Assembly: GCA_030395855.1 (NCBI GenBank)
Contig: GCA_030395855.1_4325.1
DNA from: a phage
DNA: 44,883 nt
Strand: one strand, 5' to 3'
Shown: piece by piece, positions 18,406 through 40,552 of the stretch
How positions within the stretch are numbered: position 1 is the stretch's first letter
Layout: every line of letters begins with the position of its first letter
Notes under the pieces: generated by a model
What the model saw: only the letters and a program-made list of their open reading frames with translations
Database searches by the model: none
What the model was told of the DNA's origin: nothing
Program-made: the position numbers and the translations under genes

Positions 18406-18434
18406 AAAGCCCCTTAATTGGGGCTTTTCTTTTA
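18406..18434. terminator. bidirectional intrinsic terminator
   Basis: Hairpin agcccc-ttaatt-ggggct flanked by an A-run upstream and T-run downstream; between convergent genes. Confidence 0.7.
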
Positions 18435-19394
18435 GTAGAAGTTTGGGATAAATGGAAGTGCCATTGATATGTTCGTGTCGAAAGGAAACTGAGCGCCTGT
18501 CTGAGTTGAGTAGTTACCTATTACAGATCCAGGAACAGCCCTAACGGAGCCTCCAGACATGCAAACACCCTTGTATCGTAAGTTGTTATACCCTCCGGTA
18601 ACTCTAGTCGTAGCGCCGCACCTAAGCAGCGGGAAGAAACCACCATTTATTGACTGATATCCATTGCTTATTTGTATAAATCCACCAAGAACGAATGGGC
18701 GGCGAACACTTGAAAAAACAATCTGACCAGAACTATTTGACATTGTGAGTCCGGGTCCAGCTGGTGGTGGTTCATTCCTGAATATCACCAATTGAACGTA
18801 AGTACTTGCCGCAACATCATCTGTACCTCCGTAGGTTATATCCCTACACCATATTGTTGATCCATCTGATTCAAGTGATACGTTTGGATTATCCCACTTG
18901 CCGAATGGTATTCCGCTAACTGGTAGCGATGCTGCACCGTTAACCTGTATACCCCCAACCCATGCTGCTGACATTAGTCTCGAGTTGCTTGATATAGCAA
19001 GGAAATCAGTTGAGTTCTCAACAAGTATTCCAGGACTTGATGAGGATGAAGCCGGTAGTATCTCAAAGCAATTCCCTGCAAAGTCAATTATTCGACCATT
19101 AGCACCGTTAAAGTTACTAAGCGTTATCCTTCCAACTCCGTCATTAACCTTTTGGAATCCATTCATATAATAAACTTCAGGTATAACATCGTAAGCATCA
19201 ACGTGAACAGCCTTTATTGGTAGACAGAAGGCCGTAGAACCAGGTGACATTGTCAATCCAAAATCCCACGAACTTGCAGGAGTTGAAAGTCCATTGGTAT
19301 TTATTGAGCCAGTCACGGCTGGTGCCCTTAATCCTGCCGTTATTTCCATCGCTGGTCTTCCGTCATTGAGGTCAATCAATATACCCTGCGGCAT
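18432..19394 (-). CDS. hypothetical Gly/Ser/Asn-rich protein (320 aa), co-transcribed with upstream lipoprotein gene
   Basis: RBS AAGGAG before ATG at 19394; TAATG stop/start overlap with the lipoprotein gene. Confidence 0.6.
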   Translation of the reverse strand: MPQGILIDLNDGRPAMEITAGLRAPAVTGSINTNGLSTPASSWDFGLTMSPGSTAFCLPIKAVHVDAYDVIPEVYYMNGFQKVNDGVGRITLSNFNGANGRIIDFAGNCFEILPASSSSSPGILVENSTDFLAISSNSRLMSAAWVGGIQVNGAASLPVSGIPFGKWDNPNVSLESDGSTIWCRDITYGGTDDVAASTYVQLVIFRNEPPPAGPGLTMSNSSGQIVFSSVRRPFVLGGFIQISNGYQSINGGFFPLLRCGATTRVTGGYNNLRYKGVCMSGGSVRAVPGSVIGNYSTQTGAQFPFDTNISMALPFIPNFY

Positions 19395-19639
19395 TATTTC
19401 CACTCCTTGCTGCCATGATCTGCAATGGAGCCACCGTAACCGCCGCCAGCTTTGCTTTCAATGCCAGCGTAGCGAATATCAACCTCACCAGCCGGAACAA
19501 CTACGCCACCCTTCCATTTAGCTACGCACACACCAATTGCTTGCGTTGCACACCAACCATCCGGGCGAGGACCGGAAGAACAACCAACTGTCATGATTAC
19601 TGCTGCGGCGATGATTGCTGATTTGATTAGGTTAGTCAT
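19394..19639 (-). CDS. small lipoprotein (82 aa), candidate Cor-like superinfection exclusion protein
   Basis: N-terminal signal peptide ending in lipobox MTVGC; RBS GAGGAA; conserved promoter element upstream on minus strand. Confidence 0.55.
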
Positions 19640-30426: not shown

Positions 30427-31557
30427 ATGGCAACTGCAAAAATAACCAACGAAGAGCTGCGCGAAGAACTGGCAAGCGGCATGACCAACAAGGCAATAGC
30501 AGAGAAGTACGGAATGAACATTCGCAACGTTGAATTGCGTCGTAGTAAGCTGGCTAAGAGTGGAGAATTGCACGGAAACCCAGGCATCAAGAAGCTAGTT
30601 CCTGACGGTTATTTGGTCAAAGGTACTTCAACCATGATTGACGCGGAAGGAAACGAGAAGATCCGTTGGGTTAAGACCTCAATTGATAATGAGCGCCTTG
30701 ATGTTCTGATGGAGAAAGCTCGCGAGGCATTCTGCTCTGATTTGCCAAAGGCAGATGTAGTCACCCACTCAGGTAATGAAGTTAACTCTGAATTGATGAC
30801 TCTTTATCCGATTTTCGATATCCATATCGGTATGATGGCACATCGTCATGAGTCTGGTGAGAATTATGACACGAACACGGCAGAGGAATTGATGGGATCA
30901 TATTTTGACCATGCAATTTCTGTATCTCCAGCCTCAGAGAAAGCAGTAATTTTAGTTGGCGGCGACTTCCTTCACTCAGACGGACTTGAGGCTGTAACCC
31001 CAGCAAGCGGACACTGCCTTGATCAAGATAGCCGATATGCTAAGTTAGTTTATGTGGCAATTCGCTCAATTCGTGGCGCGGTAGAGAAGATGCTTAAGAA
31101 ACACAAGGAAGTAGAGATTCAAATCATAGAGGGAAATCACGACCAGAGTGGTATGATTTGGCTCCGTGCGGCAATGGCTGCATTTTATGAAAACGAGAAT
31201 CGCGTGTTTGTTGATACTAGTCCGGCAATCATGCACAAGACGCGATTTGGCTCAACATTACTTGGTTACACGCACGGCCACACAATGAAGAAAGCTGAGG
31301 GTCGACTCGCGGCAATGGCGACAGACTACCGCAAAGACTTTGGTGAATGTGAATTCGTTTACTGCCATTCCGGCCATTTCCATCATGCAACCGTTACAGA
31401 ATGCACTCTTGGTATTGATGAGGTGCACCCTGCACTTGCCAGTAAGGATGCATATGCAGCACGGGGAGGGTGGCGATCATACCGACAGGCGGCTGCAATT
31501 GTTTACCACAAGAATTTTGGCGAGGTTGGTAGACACATTTATCGTCCTGGTATGTAA
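30427..31557 (+). CDS. calcineurin-like metallophosphoesterase with N-terminal HTH-like domain
   Basis: Motifs DIHIG, GGDFLHSD, GNHD, GHTH, GHFH match the metallophosphoesterase signature; N-terminal TNKAIAEKYGMNIRNVELRR is HTH-like. Confidence 0.7.
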   Translation: MATAKITNEELREELASGMTNKAIAEKYGMNIRNVELRRSKLAKSGELHGNPGIKKLVPDGYLVKGTSTMIDAEGNEKIRWVKTSIDNERLDVLMEKAREAFCSDLPKADVVTHSGNEVNSELMTLYPIFDIHIGMMAHRHESGENYDTNTAEELMGSYFDHAISVSPASEKAVILVGGDFLHSDGLEAVTPASGHCLDQDSRYAKLVYVAIRSIRGAVEKMLKKHKEVEIQIIEGNHDQSGMIWLRAAMAAFYENENRVFVDTSPAIMHKTRFGSTLLGYTHGHTMKKAEGRLAAMATDYRKDFGECEFVYCHSGHFHHATVTECTLGIDEVHPALASKDAYAARGGWRSYRQAAAIVYHKNFGEVGRHIYRPGM

Positions 31558-31631: not shown

Positions 31632-32105
31632 ATGATTTACGTATTTGATATCGATGGAACTATAGCTAATAATGAGCATAGAAGTCACCTCTTGCCATCC
31701 AGCGACCTTCACTTGACTTCAAGTTGGAAGGATTACAATAAAGCCTGTTCTGGAGACTCACCAATAATCCCAATGATAAAAATGATGAATGCTTTAGCTG
31801 AGTCATCTCAAGTTTACATAATGACCTCAAGAAGTGATGAAGTTGAATTGAGAACCCTTGAGTGGCTTCAGGATAATGAGATTGAGTGTGATTCGATATA
31901 CATGAGAAGTAGACATGACAACCGAAAAGATTACAAAATAAAAGAGCAATGGCTTAATGAAATCAGTGGTGGCGATAAAGGCAATGTGGTTATTTTTGAA
32001 GATAACCCAAAAGTAATTAAGCACCTAAGAAGTCGCGGATACACAGTTATGGCTGTATGTGAATATGAAGAACTACCTAAAGATTGCGAATCTCACGGAG
32101 AATGA
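31632..32105 (+). CDS. HAD-superfamily phosphatase (polynucleotide 3-phosphatase-like)
   Basis: N-terminal FDIDGT motif (HAD motif I); 157 aa. Confidence 0.6.
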   Translation: MIYVFDIDGTIANNEHRSHLLPSSDLHLTSSWKDYNKACSGDSPIIPMIKMMNALAESSQVYIMTSRSDEVELRTLEWLQDNEIECDSIYMRSRHDNRKDYKIKEQWLNEISGGDKGNVVIFEDNPKVIKHLRSRGYTVMAVCEYEELPKDCESHGE

Positions 32106-32107
32106 AA

Positions 32108-32662
32108 ATGACTAAATTATTTATCCTTAACGGACCGGCTGGAGTTGGCAAGGACACTATCGCAGATATTATGCTCGAGTTGGGTGTTGTTGATGGGAAA
32201 GTTTCATTCAAGTCACCAATGTTCGATGTAGCCAGGGGGATGCTATCAAAGGGTGAATTTGATTGGTTTATTGAGAACTACAACAACCGAGACGAGAAAG
32301 AAAAGCATCAAGAGATACTTGGCGGTAAAAGCATTCGAGAATTCATGATTTGGATTAGCGAGTCTGTAATGAAGCCAGTCTTTGGTGATGATGTCTTCGG
32401 TAAAAGGCTCGCCCAGTCACTTGGTGATGGTTGCTACATTTGCGCTGACGGTGGATTTACTAGCGAGATTAAGACACTGGTCGACGCTGGTGTTGAGGTC
32501 ACGTTAATTAGATTGCATAGGGAAGGGTACACATTTGATGGCGATAGTCGCTCATACATTCACGGGGTGTGCGCAAGAGAAATTGATGTTCGTGTTGTTG
32601 ATTGTGATATTAATGAAACATCAGCATTGGTAAGGCACGTAATAAATAGCACGAATTTCTAA
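32108..32662 (+). CDS. P-loop kinase, dNMP-kinase-like (paralog 1)
   Basis: Walker A GPAGVGKDT near N-terminus; about 45 percent identical by eye to the ORF at 39543..40160. Confidence 0.6.
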   Translation: MTKLFILNGPAGVGKDTIADIMLELGVVDGKVSFKSPMFDVARGMLSKGEFDWFIENYNNRDEKEKHQEILGGKSIREFMIWISESVMKPVFGDDVFGKRLAQSLGDGCYICADGGFTSEIKTLVDAGVEVTLIRLHREGYTFDGDSRSYIHGVCAREIDVRVVDCDINETSALVRHVINSTNF

Positions 32663-38189: not shown

Positions 38190-38738
38190 ATGCAGAAAGT
38201 AACACTAGGTGAAGTTATCCGTGAGATGGTGCGCAACGCGATGGTGTCCGAGAGTGGTGAGTTTAAAGTTCCGGTTAGCCAGATATTCAAACTGGTTCGC
38301 GGCAAGGAATACCCTGAAATGGTGTATGACGAAGAGACTAGTGAGATCCTCAACCTGGCAGATAGGGCGATACCGGAACTAAAGAACTCATACATCTATA
38401 ACACAGTGTCGAGAATGACAGAGCTTCGCGATGCTAATAAGCGAGCGAGATATAAGTTCATCTGGATTGATGATGACGGAGAGCAAACAAGGCCCGGTAG
38501 CTTCGATGGTGATGGCGCTGATAAATACCTGGTCATATACATTGAGAACGGCGCGCACTGGACTGGGAGTCGCGAAAAGAAAAAGCAGGAAGCGGAGAAA
38601 GAGGCGGCTATCATTGAAAAGTTCAAGTCTAGACTGCTCAAGCTGTCACCAAGTGTTGCTGGCTTGGAAGGTGAAGAACTTAAGGGCGCTGTTACAATGA
38701 TTAATGCTTATCAGGAAATGATTAAGGAGACTAAGTAG
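38190..38738 (+). CDS. hypothetical protein (182 aa), first gene of second rightward operon
   Basis: RBS ACGAGG before ATG 38190. Confidence 0.55.
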   Translation: MQKVTLGEVIREMVRNAMVSESGEFKVPVSQIFKLVRGKEYPEMVYDEETSEILNLADRAIPELKNSYIYNTVSRMTELRDANKRARYKFIWIDDDGEQTRPGSFDGDGADKYLVIYIENGAHWTGSREKKKQEAEKEAAIIEKFKSRLLKLSPSVAGLEGEELKGAVTMINAYQEMIKETK

Positions 38739-38893: not shown

Positions 38894-39100
38894 ATGAAGA
38901 TGATGGCTGTAATTATCGAAGATTTCGTAGGTGACAGCACTGAGGTGTCGGCTTCAGTATATTACGACGGAATAGTGAGCATTGACATTGACACGGATAA
39001 CTTAGGTGATGAATGCACGCTAGCTCACTATACACCAGAGGCAGCGCGCAAACTTGCGGCGGCATTAATCCTGGCGGCGGACGAGGCGGATAAGCAATGA
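38894..39100 (+). CDS. hypothetical acidic protein (about 66-68 aa)
   Basis: Several in-frame ATGs at 38894-38905 after RBS GAAGAGG. Confidence 0.45.
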   Translation: MKMMAVIIEDFVGDSTEVSASVYYDGIVSIDIDTDNLGDECTLAHYTPEAARKLAAALILAADEADKQ

Positions 39101-39360
39101 AACGTTTAATGACATGCATGACCATTATTGCGGCAATGATTGCTCTTACTGGTTGCGAGAAGGCACCAGAGGTTCAGATTCAGTCAGGTGAATTCAATGT
39201 GGAGCGTCTATTCACAGTGGATGGATGTACCGCCTACAGATTCCGAGATAGCGATAGAGCCATCTACTACACAAATTGCCATGGCAGTACGCAGAGTGAG
39301 TACAGGTCCGGCAAGGTCATGAAGAAAGAAACAGTTCAGACAGATCGCACGAATTGGTAA
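39097..39360 (+). CDS. putative lipoprotein (87 aa)
   Basis: Signal peptide MKRLMTCMTIIAAMIALTGC with lipobox LTGC; ATGA overlap with upstream gene. Confidence 0.55.
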   Translation: MKRLMTCMTIIAAMIALTGCEKAPEVQIQSGEFNVERLFTVDGCTAYRFRDSDRAIYYTNCHGSTQSEYRSGKVMKKETVQTDRTNW

Positions 39361-39542
39361 AAGGGGGTTCATCATGACTGGTATAATCCCCAGCATCAAC
39401 CACATGAATGGAAGTTAAGTGACGATATACGAACATAAATTCAGTAGCAGGGGTATTGATATGCTCCTGCACTATATAGACGAAAAATACTCAAAGCTCA
39501 TGCTTAAGACGCATGGCGGCACAATAACGAGGATTAACATAA

Positions 39543-40160
39543 ATGGCTAAAATCATCATTCTCAACGGTCCGGCTTCGGTTGGCAAAGACACTATCGGTA
39601 ACGCGCTTGCTAAAGATTACAATTGCATCCCGACGAGCTTTAAGATTCCTATGTTTGAGATCGCAGCGTCAATCCTGGGCGCTCGGGCGTTCAGCAAATT
39701 CATCACCGCTTATGATGATCGAGATCAGAAAGAGATGCCTCATGATTTTCTCGGTGGGAAAACCTGCCGTGAGTTCATGATCTGGATTAGCGAGTCGGTG
39801 GTCAAGCCGCTATTTGGCAATCAGCAGTTCGGTAAGCTGACGAGCGAGCGCATCCAGCTTTGTGACGAGGGATTTAGCTTTGTTTGCACTGATGGCGGTT
39901 TTCCTGATGAGGTTATCCGTCTGGTGGAAGACGGCCACTATGTTACCGTTGTGCGCCTATTTATGGATGGCAAGACCTTCGATGGAGATAGTCGTGATTA
40001 TATCCGCATCAAGGAATCGCATTTCCCTGATTATAAGCAATATAACGAGCATGACGTGCATCTGTTGAATGGTGATATTGACGGCGGCGTCATGGCAGTG
40101 GTTCGCGCCTGCGGTATCCGTCCTGCAATCGACGAGTGGGCCGACAATATTCCCTGGTAA
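39543..40160 (+). CDS. P-loop kinase, dNMP-kinase-like (paralog 2)
   Basis: Walker A GPASVGKDT; shared FMIWISESV and TFDGDSR blocks with the ORF at 32108..32662. Confidence 0.6.
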   Translation: MAKIIILNGPASVGKDTIGNALAKDYNCIPTSFKIPMFEIAASILGARAFSKFITAYDDRDQKEMPHDFLGGKTCREFMIWISESVVKPLFGNQQFGKLTSERIQLCDEGFSFVCTDGGFPDEVIRLVEDGHYVTVVRLFMDGKTFDGDSRDYIRIKESHFPDYKQYNEHDVHLLNGDIDGGVMAVVRACGIRPAIDEWADNIPW

Positions 40161-40161
40161 A

Positions 40162-40204
40162 TAGCACGAATTGCCAAACCCGCTCCGGCGGGTTTTGTTA
40201 TAGT
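40162..40204 (+). promoter_or_regulatory. conserved promoter/operator-like element copy with terminator hairpin in its spacer
   Basis: tagcacgaattgcca, spacer containing cccgc-tccg-gcggg + TTTTGTT, TATAGT at 40199-40204. Confidence 0.6.
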
Positions 40205-40232: not shown

Positions 40233-40325
40233 ATGAAGCAATACCCATCAAGCGATCACCATAACGGTCACATCATGCAGTTCTATCGCCACAATCTGAA
40301 GACGAAAGGAGTATTTGGAAAATGA
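40233..40325 (+). CDS. small hypothetical protein (30 aa)
   Basis: Not in ORF track; RBS GAGAGGAAAG before ATG 40233; ATGA coupling to next gene. Confidence 0.3.
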
Positions 40326-40552
40326 TTACGATTAACCTGTCAGATAAAGACGCGGCGATGATAAAGAGTATCATCATGAAACCAATGTACTCCACGCTAT
40401 CATTCGAACAGATGCGCGTAGTGAAAGAAGTTGGCGCGCAGATTAATAATCAACAACTCGACGTTAGTGACTTCGAGTCATCGCGTCAATACGAGGCGCT
40501 AAGCGTTAATGCTGCGTACCTGACTAACTGGGATAAGGCGACAAAGAAATGA
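40322..40552 (+). CDS. hypothetical protein (76 aa)
   Basis: ORF track; start overlaps upstream stop. Confidence 0.45.

What the first reader, a model, noticed from the sequence alone, without database searches (positions are those of the whole stretch)
39097..40160. Second dNMP-kinase-like paralog next to a second lipoprotein gene
The ORF at 39543..40160 is a clear paralog of 32108..32662 (shared GPAxVGKDT, FMIWISESV, DGGF and TFDGDSR blocks, about 45 percent identity by eye). Two diverged copies in a 45-kb genome suggest different substrate specificities or a decoy/regulatory role. It lies downstream of an 87-aa lipoprotein (lipobox LTGC) and a 180-bp gap with no conserved element.
Basis: seen in the sequence. 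Interest (0 to 1): 0.5.

Follow-up and report, generated by a model that had tools for sequence, protein, structure and literature searches.

The report
Two dNMP kinase genes, one phage
This T1/Rtp-like phage carries two intact, anciently diverged copies of a known, dispensable phage enzyme (deoxynucleotide monophosphate kinase) in two swappable accessory-gene slots; this is an uncommon but ordinary product of modular gene exchange.

Summary

The copies are not a local duplication. Synonymous sites between them are saturated. Each is about 94% identical to the single copy of a different relative (FP; JeanPiccard). Close relatives carry one copy or none. None of 40 isolate genomes with a close kinA or kinB homolog has both, but one independent metagenomic contig does.

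The "empty" 180-bp gap is a conserved leader: an extended -10 promoter-like site plus a small ORF (phrog_12148). In another phage this leader drives a different gene. The lipoprotein is an uncharacterised DUF4884 protein that is not tied to kinB. No predicted substrate contact differs between the copies, and a decoy role is unlikely. Interest is low to moderate.

The parts
39543..40160 (+). kinB: dNMP kinase (DNK), clade B, 205 aa. P-loop G9-T17 (GPASVGKDT), R60, R76, E84, K88, D117-G-G-F120, E123, D149-S-R151.
32108..32662 (+). kinA: dNMP kinase (DNK), clade A, 184 aa. Positional ortholog of Rao1 gp58 (R1DNK), 68% identity.
31632..32105 (+). HAD-superfamily phosphatase resembling the phosphatase domain of T4 Pnkp (PF25109). 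Its stop lies 2 nt before the kinA start, so it is the usual partner gene of this kinase.
30427..31557 (+). DNA repair exonuclease (T1 gp16 / Rtp61 type). Conserved left flank of hot spot A.
39097..39360 (+). 87-aa lipoprotein (lipobox LTGC, Cys20), DUF4884 / phrog_6360, ortholog of Rtp rtp3. Function uncharacterised.
38894..39100 (+). 68-aa ORF (phrog_13316). Its stop overlaps the lipoprotein start (ATGA).
39379..39387 (+). Extended -10 promoter-like element, TGgTATAAT, with no recognisable -35. Conserved in most kinB loci.
   Evidence: sequence reading; not reported by the two-hexamer scan
39461..39550 (+). Small conserved ORF, 29 aa from the ATG (43 aa from GTG 39419), phrog_12148. SD is AGGGG, and the stop overlaps the kinB ATG. 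It is part of the conserved leader that also precedes a different cargo gene in L023.
40176..40195 (+). Intrinsic-terminator-like hairpin plus T-run directly after kinB. Homology with L023 resumes at window 40158, so this stretch lies within the right conserved flank of the cargo slot.
40233..40325 (+). 30-aa homolog of T4 Stp (anti-restriction peptide and activator of the PrrC anticodon nuclease), equivalent to Rtp rtp6.
19397..19639 (-). The 'first' lipoprotein: homolog (75% identity) of Rtp45, the superinfection-exclusion lipoprotein that binds LptDE. Unrelated in sequence to the 39097 lipoprotein.

Best explanation
Both genes encode active phage deoxynucleotide monophosphate kinases (DNK) of the T4 gp1 / Rao1 R1DNK family. 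These enzymes use ATP to convert dNMPs to dNDPs, and host NDK then makes dNTPs for phage DNA replication.

They are accessory genes, not core genes. In Rtp-like phages DNK genes, with or without a Pnkp-type HAD phosphatase partner, sit in two variable hot spots:
- Hot spot A lies between the DNA repair exonuclease gene and the lysis cassette.
- Hot spot B lies in the early region after the DUF7174 gene.

This phage received a clade-A cassette (HAD + kinA) at hot spot A. At hot spot B it received a clade-B DNK (kinB) behind a conserved promoter and small-ORF leader. The two-copy state is therefore a by-product of modular recombination, and the copies are largely redundant in chemistry. They may differ in timing and dose: kinB has its own promoter-like site and terminator, while kinA is translationally coupled to the HAD gene.

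What is shown:
- homology, fold and conservation of functional residues;
- purifying selection on both copies;
- the patchy distribution among relatives;
- the sharp cassette boundaries.

What is taken from the literature: the enzyme activity of the ortholog R1DNK, its dispensability, and its role as trigger of the Kongming defence.

What is inferred: the activity of kinA and kinB themselves, their redundancy, and promoter use.
For: Family assignment:
- Both proteins hit phrog_139 at about 1e-41. T4 gp1, whose sequence equals 1DEK, hits the same PHROG at 1.8e-65.
- hhalign of the family alignment against T4 gp1 gives probability 93%, E 2.6e-7, over 175 columns.
- kinA is 68% and kinB 51% identical to R1DNK. 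R1DNK lies at the same locus with the same neighbours.
- R1DNK phosphorylates dAMP, dGMP, dCMP and dTMP. Its K15A mutant is dead. Its deletion carries no fitness cost.
- The escape mutations R61Q, L136P and E158G hit residues conserved in kinA, kinB and both clades.

Origin of the two copies:
- kinA is 94% identical to FP's single copy, and kinB is 94% identical to JeanPiccard's single copy. A110b and T145P1 have none, and Rtp has only the HAD gene.
- All 17 kinA-type and 23 kinB-type isolate records have one place each.
- Between the two copies dS is saturated, the longest shared nucleotide word is 14, and GC content differs.
- Clade-B DNK also occurs at hot spot A with a HAD gene, and at hot spot B with a HAD gene.
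- The kinB ORF is exactly replaced by an unrelated gene in L023, between flanks conserved at 95% and 92%.
- The independent contig L015 has the same double layout.
- dN/dS is about 0.08-0.21 for kinB and about 0.14-0.26 for kinA.
Against: - No enzymatic data exist for kinA, kinB or any clade-B member.
- Clade B has fixed losses of two arginines that are present in clade A and R1DNK. M141 replaces the Arg that aligns with T4 R197, an ATP-base contact, and L99 replaces R100. Clade B also has a longer C-terminus. The chemistry, for example donor preference, could therefore differ.
- The whole T1-type subfamily has Gly where T4 gp1 has the dNMP-binding R177.
- The strong gene linkage with a Pnkp-type phosphatase, including natural fusions, is not explained by a simple dNTP-supply role.
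- The frequency of double carriers rests on a small sample.
Confidence: 0.7

Rival explanations
1. The two DNKs are functionally non-redundant (sub-functionalised). Clade B would differ from clade A in phosphate donor, dNMP range or expression timing, so carrying both broadens or re-times dNTP supply. It might also change how the phage is sensed by DNK-triggered immunity (Kongming).
For: - There are 21 fixed clade-specific differences. They include R138->M141 (equivalent to the ATP-base contact T4 R197) and R100->L99. The C-terminal segments also differ.
- kinB has its own promoter-like leader and terminator, whereas kinA is coupled to the HAD gene.
- Both copies are kept under purifying selection, and the double layout is seen in two independent sequences.
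- In the Kongming study some phage DNKs did not trigger the system.
Against: - All mapped dNMP-contact residues and all R1DNK loss-of-function positions are identical in both copies.
- Most relatives manage with one copy of either clade, or with none.
- Clade-B DNK occupies hot spot A in other phages, so the two clades look interchangeable.
Confidence: 0.2
2. The P-loop proteins are the 5'-kinase halves of a split polynucleotide kinase/phosphatase. Together with the HAD 3'-phosphatase they would heal broken RNA or DNA ends, for example tRNA cut by the PrrC anticodon nuclease that the neighbouring Stp-like peptide would activate.
For: - The HAD partner matches the Pnkp phosphatase domain PF25109.
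- HAD-kinase adjacency recurs at both hot spots, and natural fusions exist in the order phosphatase then kinase.
- An Stp homolog lies directly downstream of kinB.
- Many database records call the HAD gene 'polynucleotide kinase'.
Against: - The ortholog R1DNK is a demonstrated dNMP kinase.
- The P-loop is GKD-T as in T4 gp1, not GK[ST] as in Pnkp (sequence; the Pnkp motif is from my own knowledge).
- The arginines that bind the dNMP phosphate in T4 gp1 are conserved.
- kinB occurs in genomes with no HAD gene at all, for example JeanPiccard.
- I did not notice an RNA ligase gene in the window. This was not systematically searched.
Confidence: 0.06
3. One copy is a decoy, a pseudo-enzyme or a decaying remnant.
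For: - Redundancy makes one copy dispensable.
- DNK loss is selected by Kongming.
- In phage DTL the kinB-type gene appears split into two ORFs.
Against: - Both window copies are full length with all invariant family residues.
- dN/dS is well below 1 for both.
Confidence: 0.03
4. The two-copy layout is an assembly chimera of two co-occurring related phages.
For: - No isolate genome in the phage collection shows the layout.
- The window's exact proteins are not on record in the contig collection.
Against: - An independent contig from another sample (L015, Logan ERR12389522) has the same layout, with about 7 kb of ordinary collinear genes between the copies.
- The window is collinear with relatives throughout.
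Confidence: 0.01

Closest known systems
Rao1 gp58 (R1DNK), the deoxynucleotide monophosphate kinase of Escherichia phage Rao1 (Zeng et al., bioRxiv 10.1101/2024.12.20.629578)
   Same: - Same phage group and the same locus as kinA: exonuclease, then HAD 'PNK', then DNK, then the lysis genes.
- 68% identity to kinA and 51% to kinB.
- Same length class and the same motifs. K15, R61, L136 and E158 are conserved.
- Non-essential accessory enzyme.
   Different: - Rao1 has a single copy.
- Its HAD partner belongs to the other HAD clade (41% identical to the window's).
- gp58 has its own promoter, whereas kinA abuts the HAD stop codon.
- kinB belongs to a different clade, with M141 and L99 in place of arginines and a longer C-terminus.
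- Neither kinA nor kinB has been assayed.
T4 gp1 dNMP kinase (PDB 1DEK/1DEL)
   Same: - Same PHROG, and the best structural match.
- GKD-T P-loop.
- Equivalents of R68, R132, M135, D175, E181 and D204 are conserved.
   Different: - Only about 16% identity.
- The T1-type proteins lack T4's roughly 36-residue insertion.
- They have Gly at the position of R177 and lack the basic residues inside the P-loop.
- T4 gp1 excludes dAMP and dCMP, whereas R1DNK accepts all four dNMPs.
T4 polynucleotide kinase/phosphatase (Pnkp, pseT)
   Same: - The neighbouring HAD gene is homologous to the phosphatase domain of Pnkp.
- The kinase is a P-loop protein adjacent to, or fused with, that phosphatase.
- An Stp homolog lies nearby, as in the T4 stp/pseT/PrrC story.
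   Different: - The kinase is of the gp1 type, not the Pnkp kinase type.
- The domain order in the fusions is phosphatase then kinase.
- The characterised ortholog acts on mononucleotides.
Rtp45 / Cor / Llp superinfection-exclusion lipoproteins
   Same: The 39097 product is also a small phage-encoded lipoprotein with a lipobox. It has a non-Asp residue at +2, so outer-membrane targeting is expected (inference).
   Different: - No detectable similarity to the window's Rtp45 homolog.
- It is not located next to the receptor-binding protein gene.
- It belongs to DUF4884, and its function is unknown.

Membership tests
Phage dNMP kinase (DNK; T4 gp1 / R1DNK family, phrog_139) | Significant sequence or profile homology to characterised members | tested here: met
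   phrog_139 at E 1e-41 for both copies. T4 gp1 falls in the same PHROG. hhalign probability 93%. BLASTP to R1DNK: kinA 68% (E 8e-96), kinB 51% (E 5e-52).
Phage dNMP kinase (DNK; T4 gp1 / R1DNK family, phrog_139) | P-loop of the G-x4-G-K-D-T type with the catalytic Lys (K15 in R1DNK) | tested here: met
   GPASVGKDT in kinB and GPAGVGKDT in kinA. K15 is invariant in both clades.
Phage dNMP kinase (DNK; T4 gp1 / R1DNK family, phrog_139) | Fold of T4 gp1 (P-loop core plus helical substrate domain) | tested here: met
Phage dNMP kinase (DNK; T4 gp1 / R1DNK family, phrog_139) | Residues that bind the dNMP phosphate (T4 K37, R68, R132, R177) | tested here: inconclusive
   R68->R60 and R132->R76 are conserved. 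K34 lies near K37 but is offset in the alignment. R177 is Gly119 across the subfamily, including the active enzyme R1DNK. The escape mutation R61Q in R1DNK supports the role of R60/R61.
Phage dNMP kinase (DNK; T4 gp1 / R1DNK family, phrog_139) | ATP-dependent dNMP to dNDP activity | not testable with these tools
   Shown only for the ortholog R1DNK.
T4 Pnkp-type polynucleotide 5'-kinase | Pnkp-type kinase fold and motifs (GxxGxGK[ST]; Asp general base near strand 2) | tested here: not met
T4 Pnkp-type polynucleotide 5'-kinase | Physical or genetic coupling to a Pnkp-type HAD 3'-phosphatase | tested here: inconclusive
   Met for kinA and for many relatives and fusions. Not met for kinB here, nor in JeanPiccard, L019, L021 or L036.
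Superinfection-exclusion lipoproteins (Rtp45/Cor/Llp) | Lipobox signal peptide | tested here: met
   MKRLMTCMTIIAAMIALTG|C.
Superinfection-exclusion lipoproteins (Rtp45/Cor/Llp) | Homology to a characterised exclusion lipoprotein, or location beside the receptor-binding protein gene | tested here: not met
   No alignment to the window's Rtp45 homolog. The Rtp45 homolog is at 19397..19639(-), beside the receptor-binding protein locus. The 39097 protein hits only DUF4884 / phrog_6360.

The most novel reading that the evidence does not exclude
Clade-B DNK (kinB) is a functionally distinct kinase. It would have an altered phosphate donor or acceptor range, or altered timing through its promoter and small-ORF leader. 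Double-DNK phages would then have a different relation to DNK-sensing immunity (Kongming): either they are much harder to rescue by escape mutation, or one copy does not feed the dITP signal. Related to this, the recurrent Pnkp-type HAD partner, which is sometimes fused to DNK, could be a nucleotide phosphatase that tunes the dNMP pools that trigger the defence.
Probability: 0.15. Interest if true: 0.55.

Novelty: new member of a known kind. Interest (0 to 1): 0.27.

Why it matters
By itself this matters little. The gene family is known, and a close ortholog has been characterised.

It has some value as a natural test case. Phage DNKs are dispensable enzymes that also act as the trigger of the Kongming (dITP/NADase) defence. 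A phage with two diverged DNKs predicts a much lower escape frequency if both copies trigger the system. It also offers a ready pair for mapping which DNK features determine substrate range and immune triggering.

The analysis also documents two things that are useful for annotation and for hunting accessory or counter-defence genes in Drexlerviridae:
- DNK and HAD cassettes shuttle between two hot spots.
- Hot spot B has a conserved promoter and small-ORF "expression platform" with exchangeable cargo.

Tried and rejected
- Pfam and NCBIfam gave no significant family for either kinase.
- PDB sequence searches, with a single sequence and with a profile, gave only generic P-loop matches; 1DEK scored E 0.014.
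- The exact window proteins are not on record in the contig index.
- IMG/VR scans returned only 6 loci. The one metagenome scan returned only short contigs. The contigs carrying the closest kinA cluster ended before hot spot B. The frequency of double carriers therefore rests on 40 isolate genomes plus about 10 long contigs.
- I could not identify the roughly 5 of 1424 records that have two tblastn places. None is among the close kinA-type or kinB-type records.
- The leader has no credible Rfam match (one sub-threshold snoRNA hit, E 0.33, far below the gathering score) and an unremarkable fold (z -1.26). I rejected a riboswitch or structured-RNA reading.
- I considered the HAD gene as an anti-Kongming factor analogous to T5 Dmp. 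This is disfavoured because Rao1 carries such a HAD gene (gp57) and is still sensitive to Kongming.
- The per-phage Kongming sensitivity of Bas03, a kinB-type phage, is only given in a figure that is not held as text.

Full report
**What the window is.** The window is collinear with Rtp-like siphophages (Drexlerviridae, Braunvirinae) at about 87-89% nucleotide identity. The closest records are Veterinaerplatzvirus T145P1, Msk, the BEK phages and JeanPiccard.

**Checking the observation.**
- ORF 39543..40160 (kinB, 205 aa) and ORF 32108..32662 (kinA, 184 aa) are present.
- They align at 49% identity over 156 residues, E 2e-47.
- The kinA start at 32108 is supported by a GGAG 7 nt upstream. It lies 2 nt after the stop of the preceding gene. 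Gene calls in relatives use the same start.
- The 87-aa ORF 39097..39360 has a signal peptide and the lipobox LTGC.

**What the proteins are.**
- Pfam, NCBIfam and PDB sequence searches gave nothing useful.
- Both proteins match phrog_139 "deoxynucleoside monophosphate kinase" at about 1e-41.
- A 117-sequence family alignment aligns to T4 gp1 over its full length by hhalign (probability 93%, E 2.6e-7).
- The same alignment gave an AlphaFold model of kinB with pLDDT 94.
- The family is large: 2484 representative clusters at E <= 1e-3.

**An experimentally characterised ortholog.**
- Phage Rao1 appeared among the kinA-type tblastn hits.
- Its gp58 lies at the same locus as kinA, after the exonuclease (gp56) and a HAD "polynucleotide kinase" (gp57) and before the lysis genes.
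- It is 68% identical to kinA and 51% identical to kinB.
- gp58 is "R1DNK" of Zeng et al. (bioRxiv 10.1101/2024.12.20.629578). In vitro it phosphorylates dAMP, dGMP and dCMP, and also dTMP, with weak activity on dIMP. K15A inactivates it.
- Deleting it lowers dATP moderately, with no apparent fitness cost.
- Its activity triggers the Kongming defence (KomABC), which signals through dITP and depletes NAD+.
- Escape mutants carry M45T, R61Q, L136P, E158G or promoter mutations.
- K15, R61, L136 and E158 are conserved in kinA (same numbering). In kinB they are K15, R60, L139 and E169. They are invariant or nearly so in 23 clade-A and 85 clade-B sequences.
- I mapped T4 gp1 residue roles (Table 2 of PMC10653934) through the hhalign alignment. 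R60 corresponds to T4 R68 and R76 to R132; both of these bind the dNMP phosphate. M79 corresponds to M135, D117 to D175, E123 to E181 and D149 to D204.
- T4 R177 is Gly in the whole T1-type subfamily, including the active enzyme R1DNK. T4's roughly 36-residue insertion is absent.

I conclude that both genes encode DNKs. This is inferred for kinA and kinB and demonstrated only for the ortholog.

**Are the copies diverging functionally, or is one a decoy?**
- Within each clade conservation is high.
- 69 positions are at least 90% conserved and identical in both clades. Only 21 are fixed differences, and most of those are conservative.
- The notable differences are R138(A)->M141(B), which aligns with the ATP-base contact T4 R197, and R100(A)->L99(B). 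Clade B also has a longer C-terminus.
- No predicted dNMP-contact residue differs between the clades.
- dN/dS is 0.08-0.21 for kinB and 0.14-0.26 for kinA in the informative pairs.

A decoy or pseudogene is therefore unlikely. A difference in acceptor specificity has no support. A difference in donor use or timing cannot be excluded.

**Origin of the two copies.**
- Between the copies, synonymous sites are saturated and the longest shared nucleotide word is 14.
- GC content differs: kinB 49%, kinA 43%, the HAD gene 37%, and the whole window 45%.
- tblastn of window proteins against whole genomes gave the following picture:

| Genome | Hot spot A (after exonuclease) | Hot spot B (early region) |
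|---|---|---|
| FP, Msk | HAD + kinA (84-96% identity) | no lipoprotein, no kinB |
| JeanPiccard | no HAD, no kinA | lipoprotein (90%) + kinB (94%) |
| Rtp | none | lipoprotein, then a HAD gene; no kinase anywhere |
| T145P1 (closest genome overall) | none | lipoprotein only |
| A110b | none | none |

- In the 50,697-record phage collection, 1424 records match but there are only 1429 places. All 17 kinA-type records (at least 68% identity) and all 23 kinB-type records (at least 77%) have one place each.
- The layout is nevertheless real. The independent contig L015 (Logan ERR12389522) has exonuclease | HAD | kinA ... DUF7174 | lipoprotein | kinB.
- The clades are not tied to loci. Clade-B DNK with a type-2 HAD gene sits at hot spot A in L034 and L035 and at hot spot B in L017. 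Clade-B DNK stands alone at hot spot B in L019, L021 and L036.
- The HAD genes also form two clades, about 41% identical to each other. Type 2 is found at both hot spots.
- A 2026 survey had already noted PNK and dNMP-kinase genes between the exonuclease and the holin in many Drexlerviridae (PMC13164509).

The two-copy state is best read as the chance combination of two accessory cassettes.

**The "gap" and the cargo slot.**
- The stretch from about 39349 to 39542 is conserved upstream of kinB even when the upstream gene differs, as in L019, L010 and L021.
- It holds an extended -10 (TGgTATAAT, 39379-87).
- It also holds a small ORF, 39461..39550, with SD AGGGG. This ORF matches phrog_12148 at 1e-15. 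In L010 its changes are mostly synonymous. Its stop overlaps the kinB ATG.
- In L023, a phage seen on at least 24 contigs, homology to the window runs through the lipoprotein and this leader (39026-39532, 95%). It is lost exactly over the kinB ORF, where an unrelated 109-aa gene sits. It resumes at 40158 (92%).
- A terminator-like hairpin follows kinB at 40176-40195.
- The leader has no credible Rfam match (one sub-threshold snoRNA hit, E 0.33) and an ordinary folding energy.

Hot spot B thus looks like a fixed expression platform with exchangeable cargo.

**The lipoprotein.**
- It is the ortholog of Rtp rtp3.
- It belongs to DUF4884 / phrog_6360.
- It occurs in 118 phage records and is everywhere uncharacterised.
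- It shows no similarity to the window's Rtp45 homolog at 19397..19639(-). Rtp45 is the known LptDE-binding exclusion lipoprotein (PMC12685063).
- It occurs with and without kinB, so the adjacency carries no functional implication.

**The HAD partner.**
- Its recurrent adjacency to DNK, and natural fusions in the order HAD then DNK (P0138, P0142), argue for a functional link that a plain "dNTP supply" role does not explain.
- A split Pnkp for end-healing is a possible reading. The Stp homolog directly downstream of kinB (40233..40325; phrog_6763 at 3.7e-14) makes it tempting. The R1DNK biochemistry and the fold evidence argue against it for the kinase.
- A role like that of T5 Dmp, which counters Kongming, is disfavoured because Rao1 carries such a HAD gene and remains sensitive.

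**Verdict.** The family assignment is right, and one copy now has an experimentally characterised ortholog. The suggested meanings (different specificities, or a decoy) are not supported. The finding is a new member, or an unusual combination, of a known kind. Its modest interest lies mainly in offering a natural two-DNK test case for DNK-triggered immunity.

Noticed in passing
window 39349-39550; L023 17797-17976: A conserved leader (extended -10 plus the small ORF phrog_12148) precedes kinB, and in L023 it precedes an unrelated 109-aa gene. It is far more conserved than kinB itself: about 96% identity in L021, where kinB dS is about 1.1. A hairpin (GCAGGGG...CUCCUGC) could sequester the small ORF's SD and AUG.
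   Followed up: partly
L023 17977-18306: The alternative cargo in the kinB slot is a 109-aa protein. It matches only the C-terminal part of longer phage families (phrog_2452; phrog_17613 'ATPase'). Its function is unknown.
   Followed up: partly
window 40233-40325: A 30-aa homolog of T4 Stp (75% identity over 24 aa; phrog_6763). T4 Stp is the peptide that inhibits EcoprrI restriction and activates the PrrC anticodon nuclease. The ORF lies directly downstream of kinB, and its end overlaps the start of the DUF7180 gene at 40322.
   Followed up: partly
proteins P0138, P0142 (not in the window): Natural fusion proteins (403-461 aa) with an N-terminal Pnkp-type HAD phosphatase, a roughly 70-110 aa linker and a C-terminal DNK domain. 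P0136, P0145 and P0163 are DNKs with long, low-complexity C-terminal extensions.
   Followed up: partly
window 31632-32105; L025 8406-8954; L002 1444-1983; L017 9333-9947: The partner HAD phosphatases form two clades, about 41% identical. Type 1 is 157 aa (window, FP, Msk). Type 2 is 180-204 aa (Rao1 gp57, Rtp4, L017, L034). Type 2 is found at both hot spots. The window's HAD gene has unusually low GC (37%, against 45% for the window).
   Followed up: partly
phage DTL (L010 10001-10615; protein P0096): The kinB-type gene of phage DTL appears to be split. It is annotated as two hypothetical proteins, the product on record is 127 aa, and the apparent dN is inflated. It may be a decaying copy.
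   Followed up: no
window 19397-19639 (-), beside ORF 18432-19403 (-): A homolog (75% identity) of Rtp45, the structurally characterised superinfection-exclusion lipoprotein that binds LptDE. It sits next to the putative receptor-binding protein gene, which suggests LptD is the terminal receptor of this phage.
   Followed up: partly
window 38190-38738 and 40322-40552: DUF7174 and DUF7180 genes form the conserved outer frame of hot spot B in all relatives examined. Between them the gene content varies from zero to about five genes.
   Followed up: partly
L019 7315-8121 and L026 15744-16550: Some relatives carry a PAPS-reductase-like gene (PF01507, weak hit) and HNH endonuclease genes in the leftward early operon between the two hot spots. 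The window lacks these.
   Followed up: no
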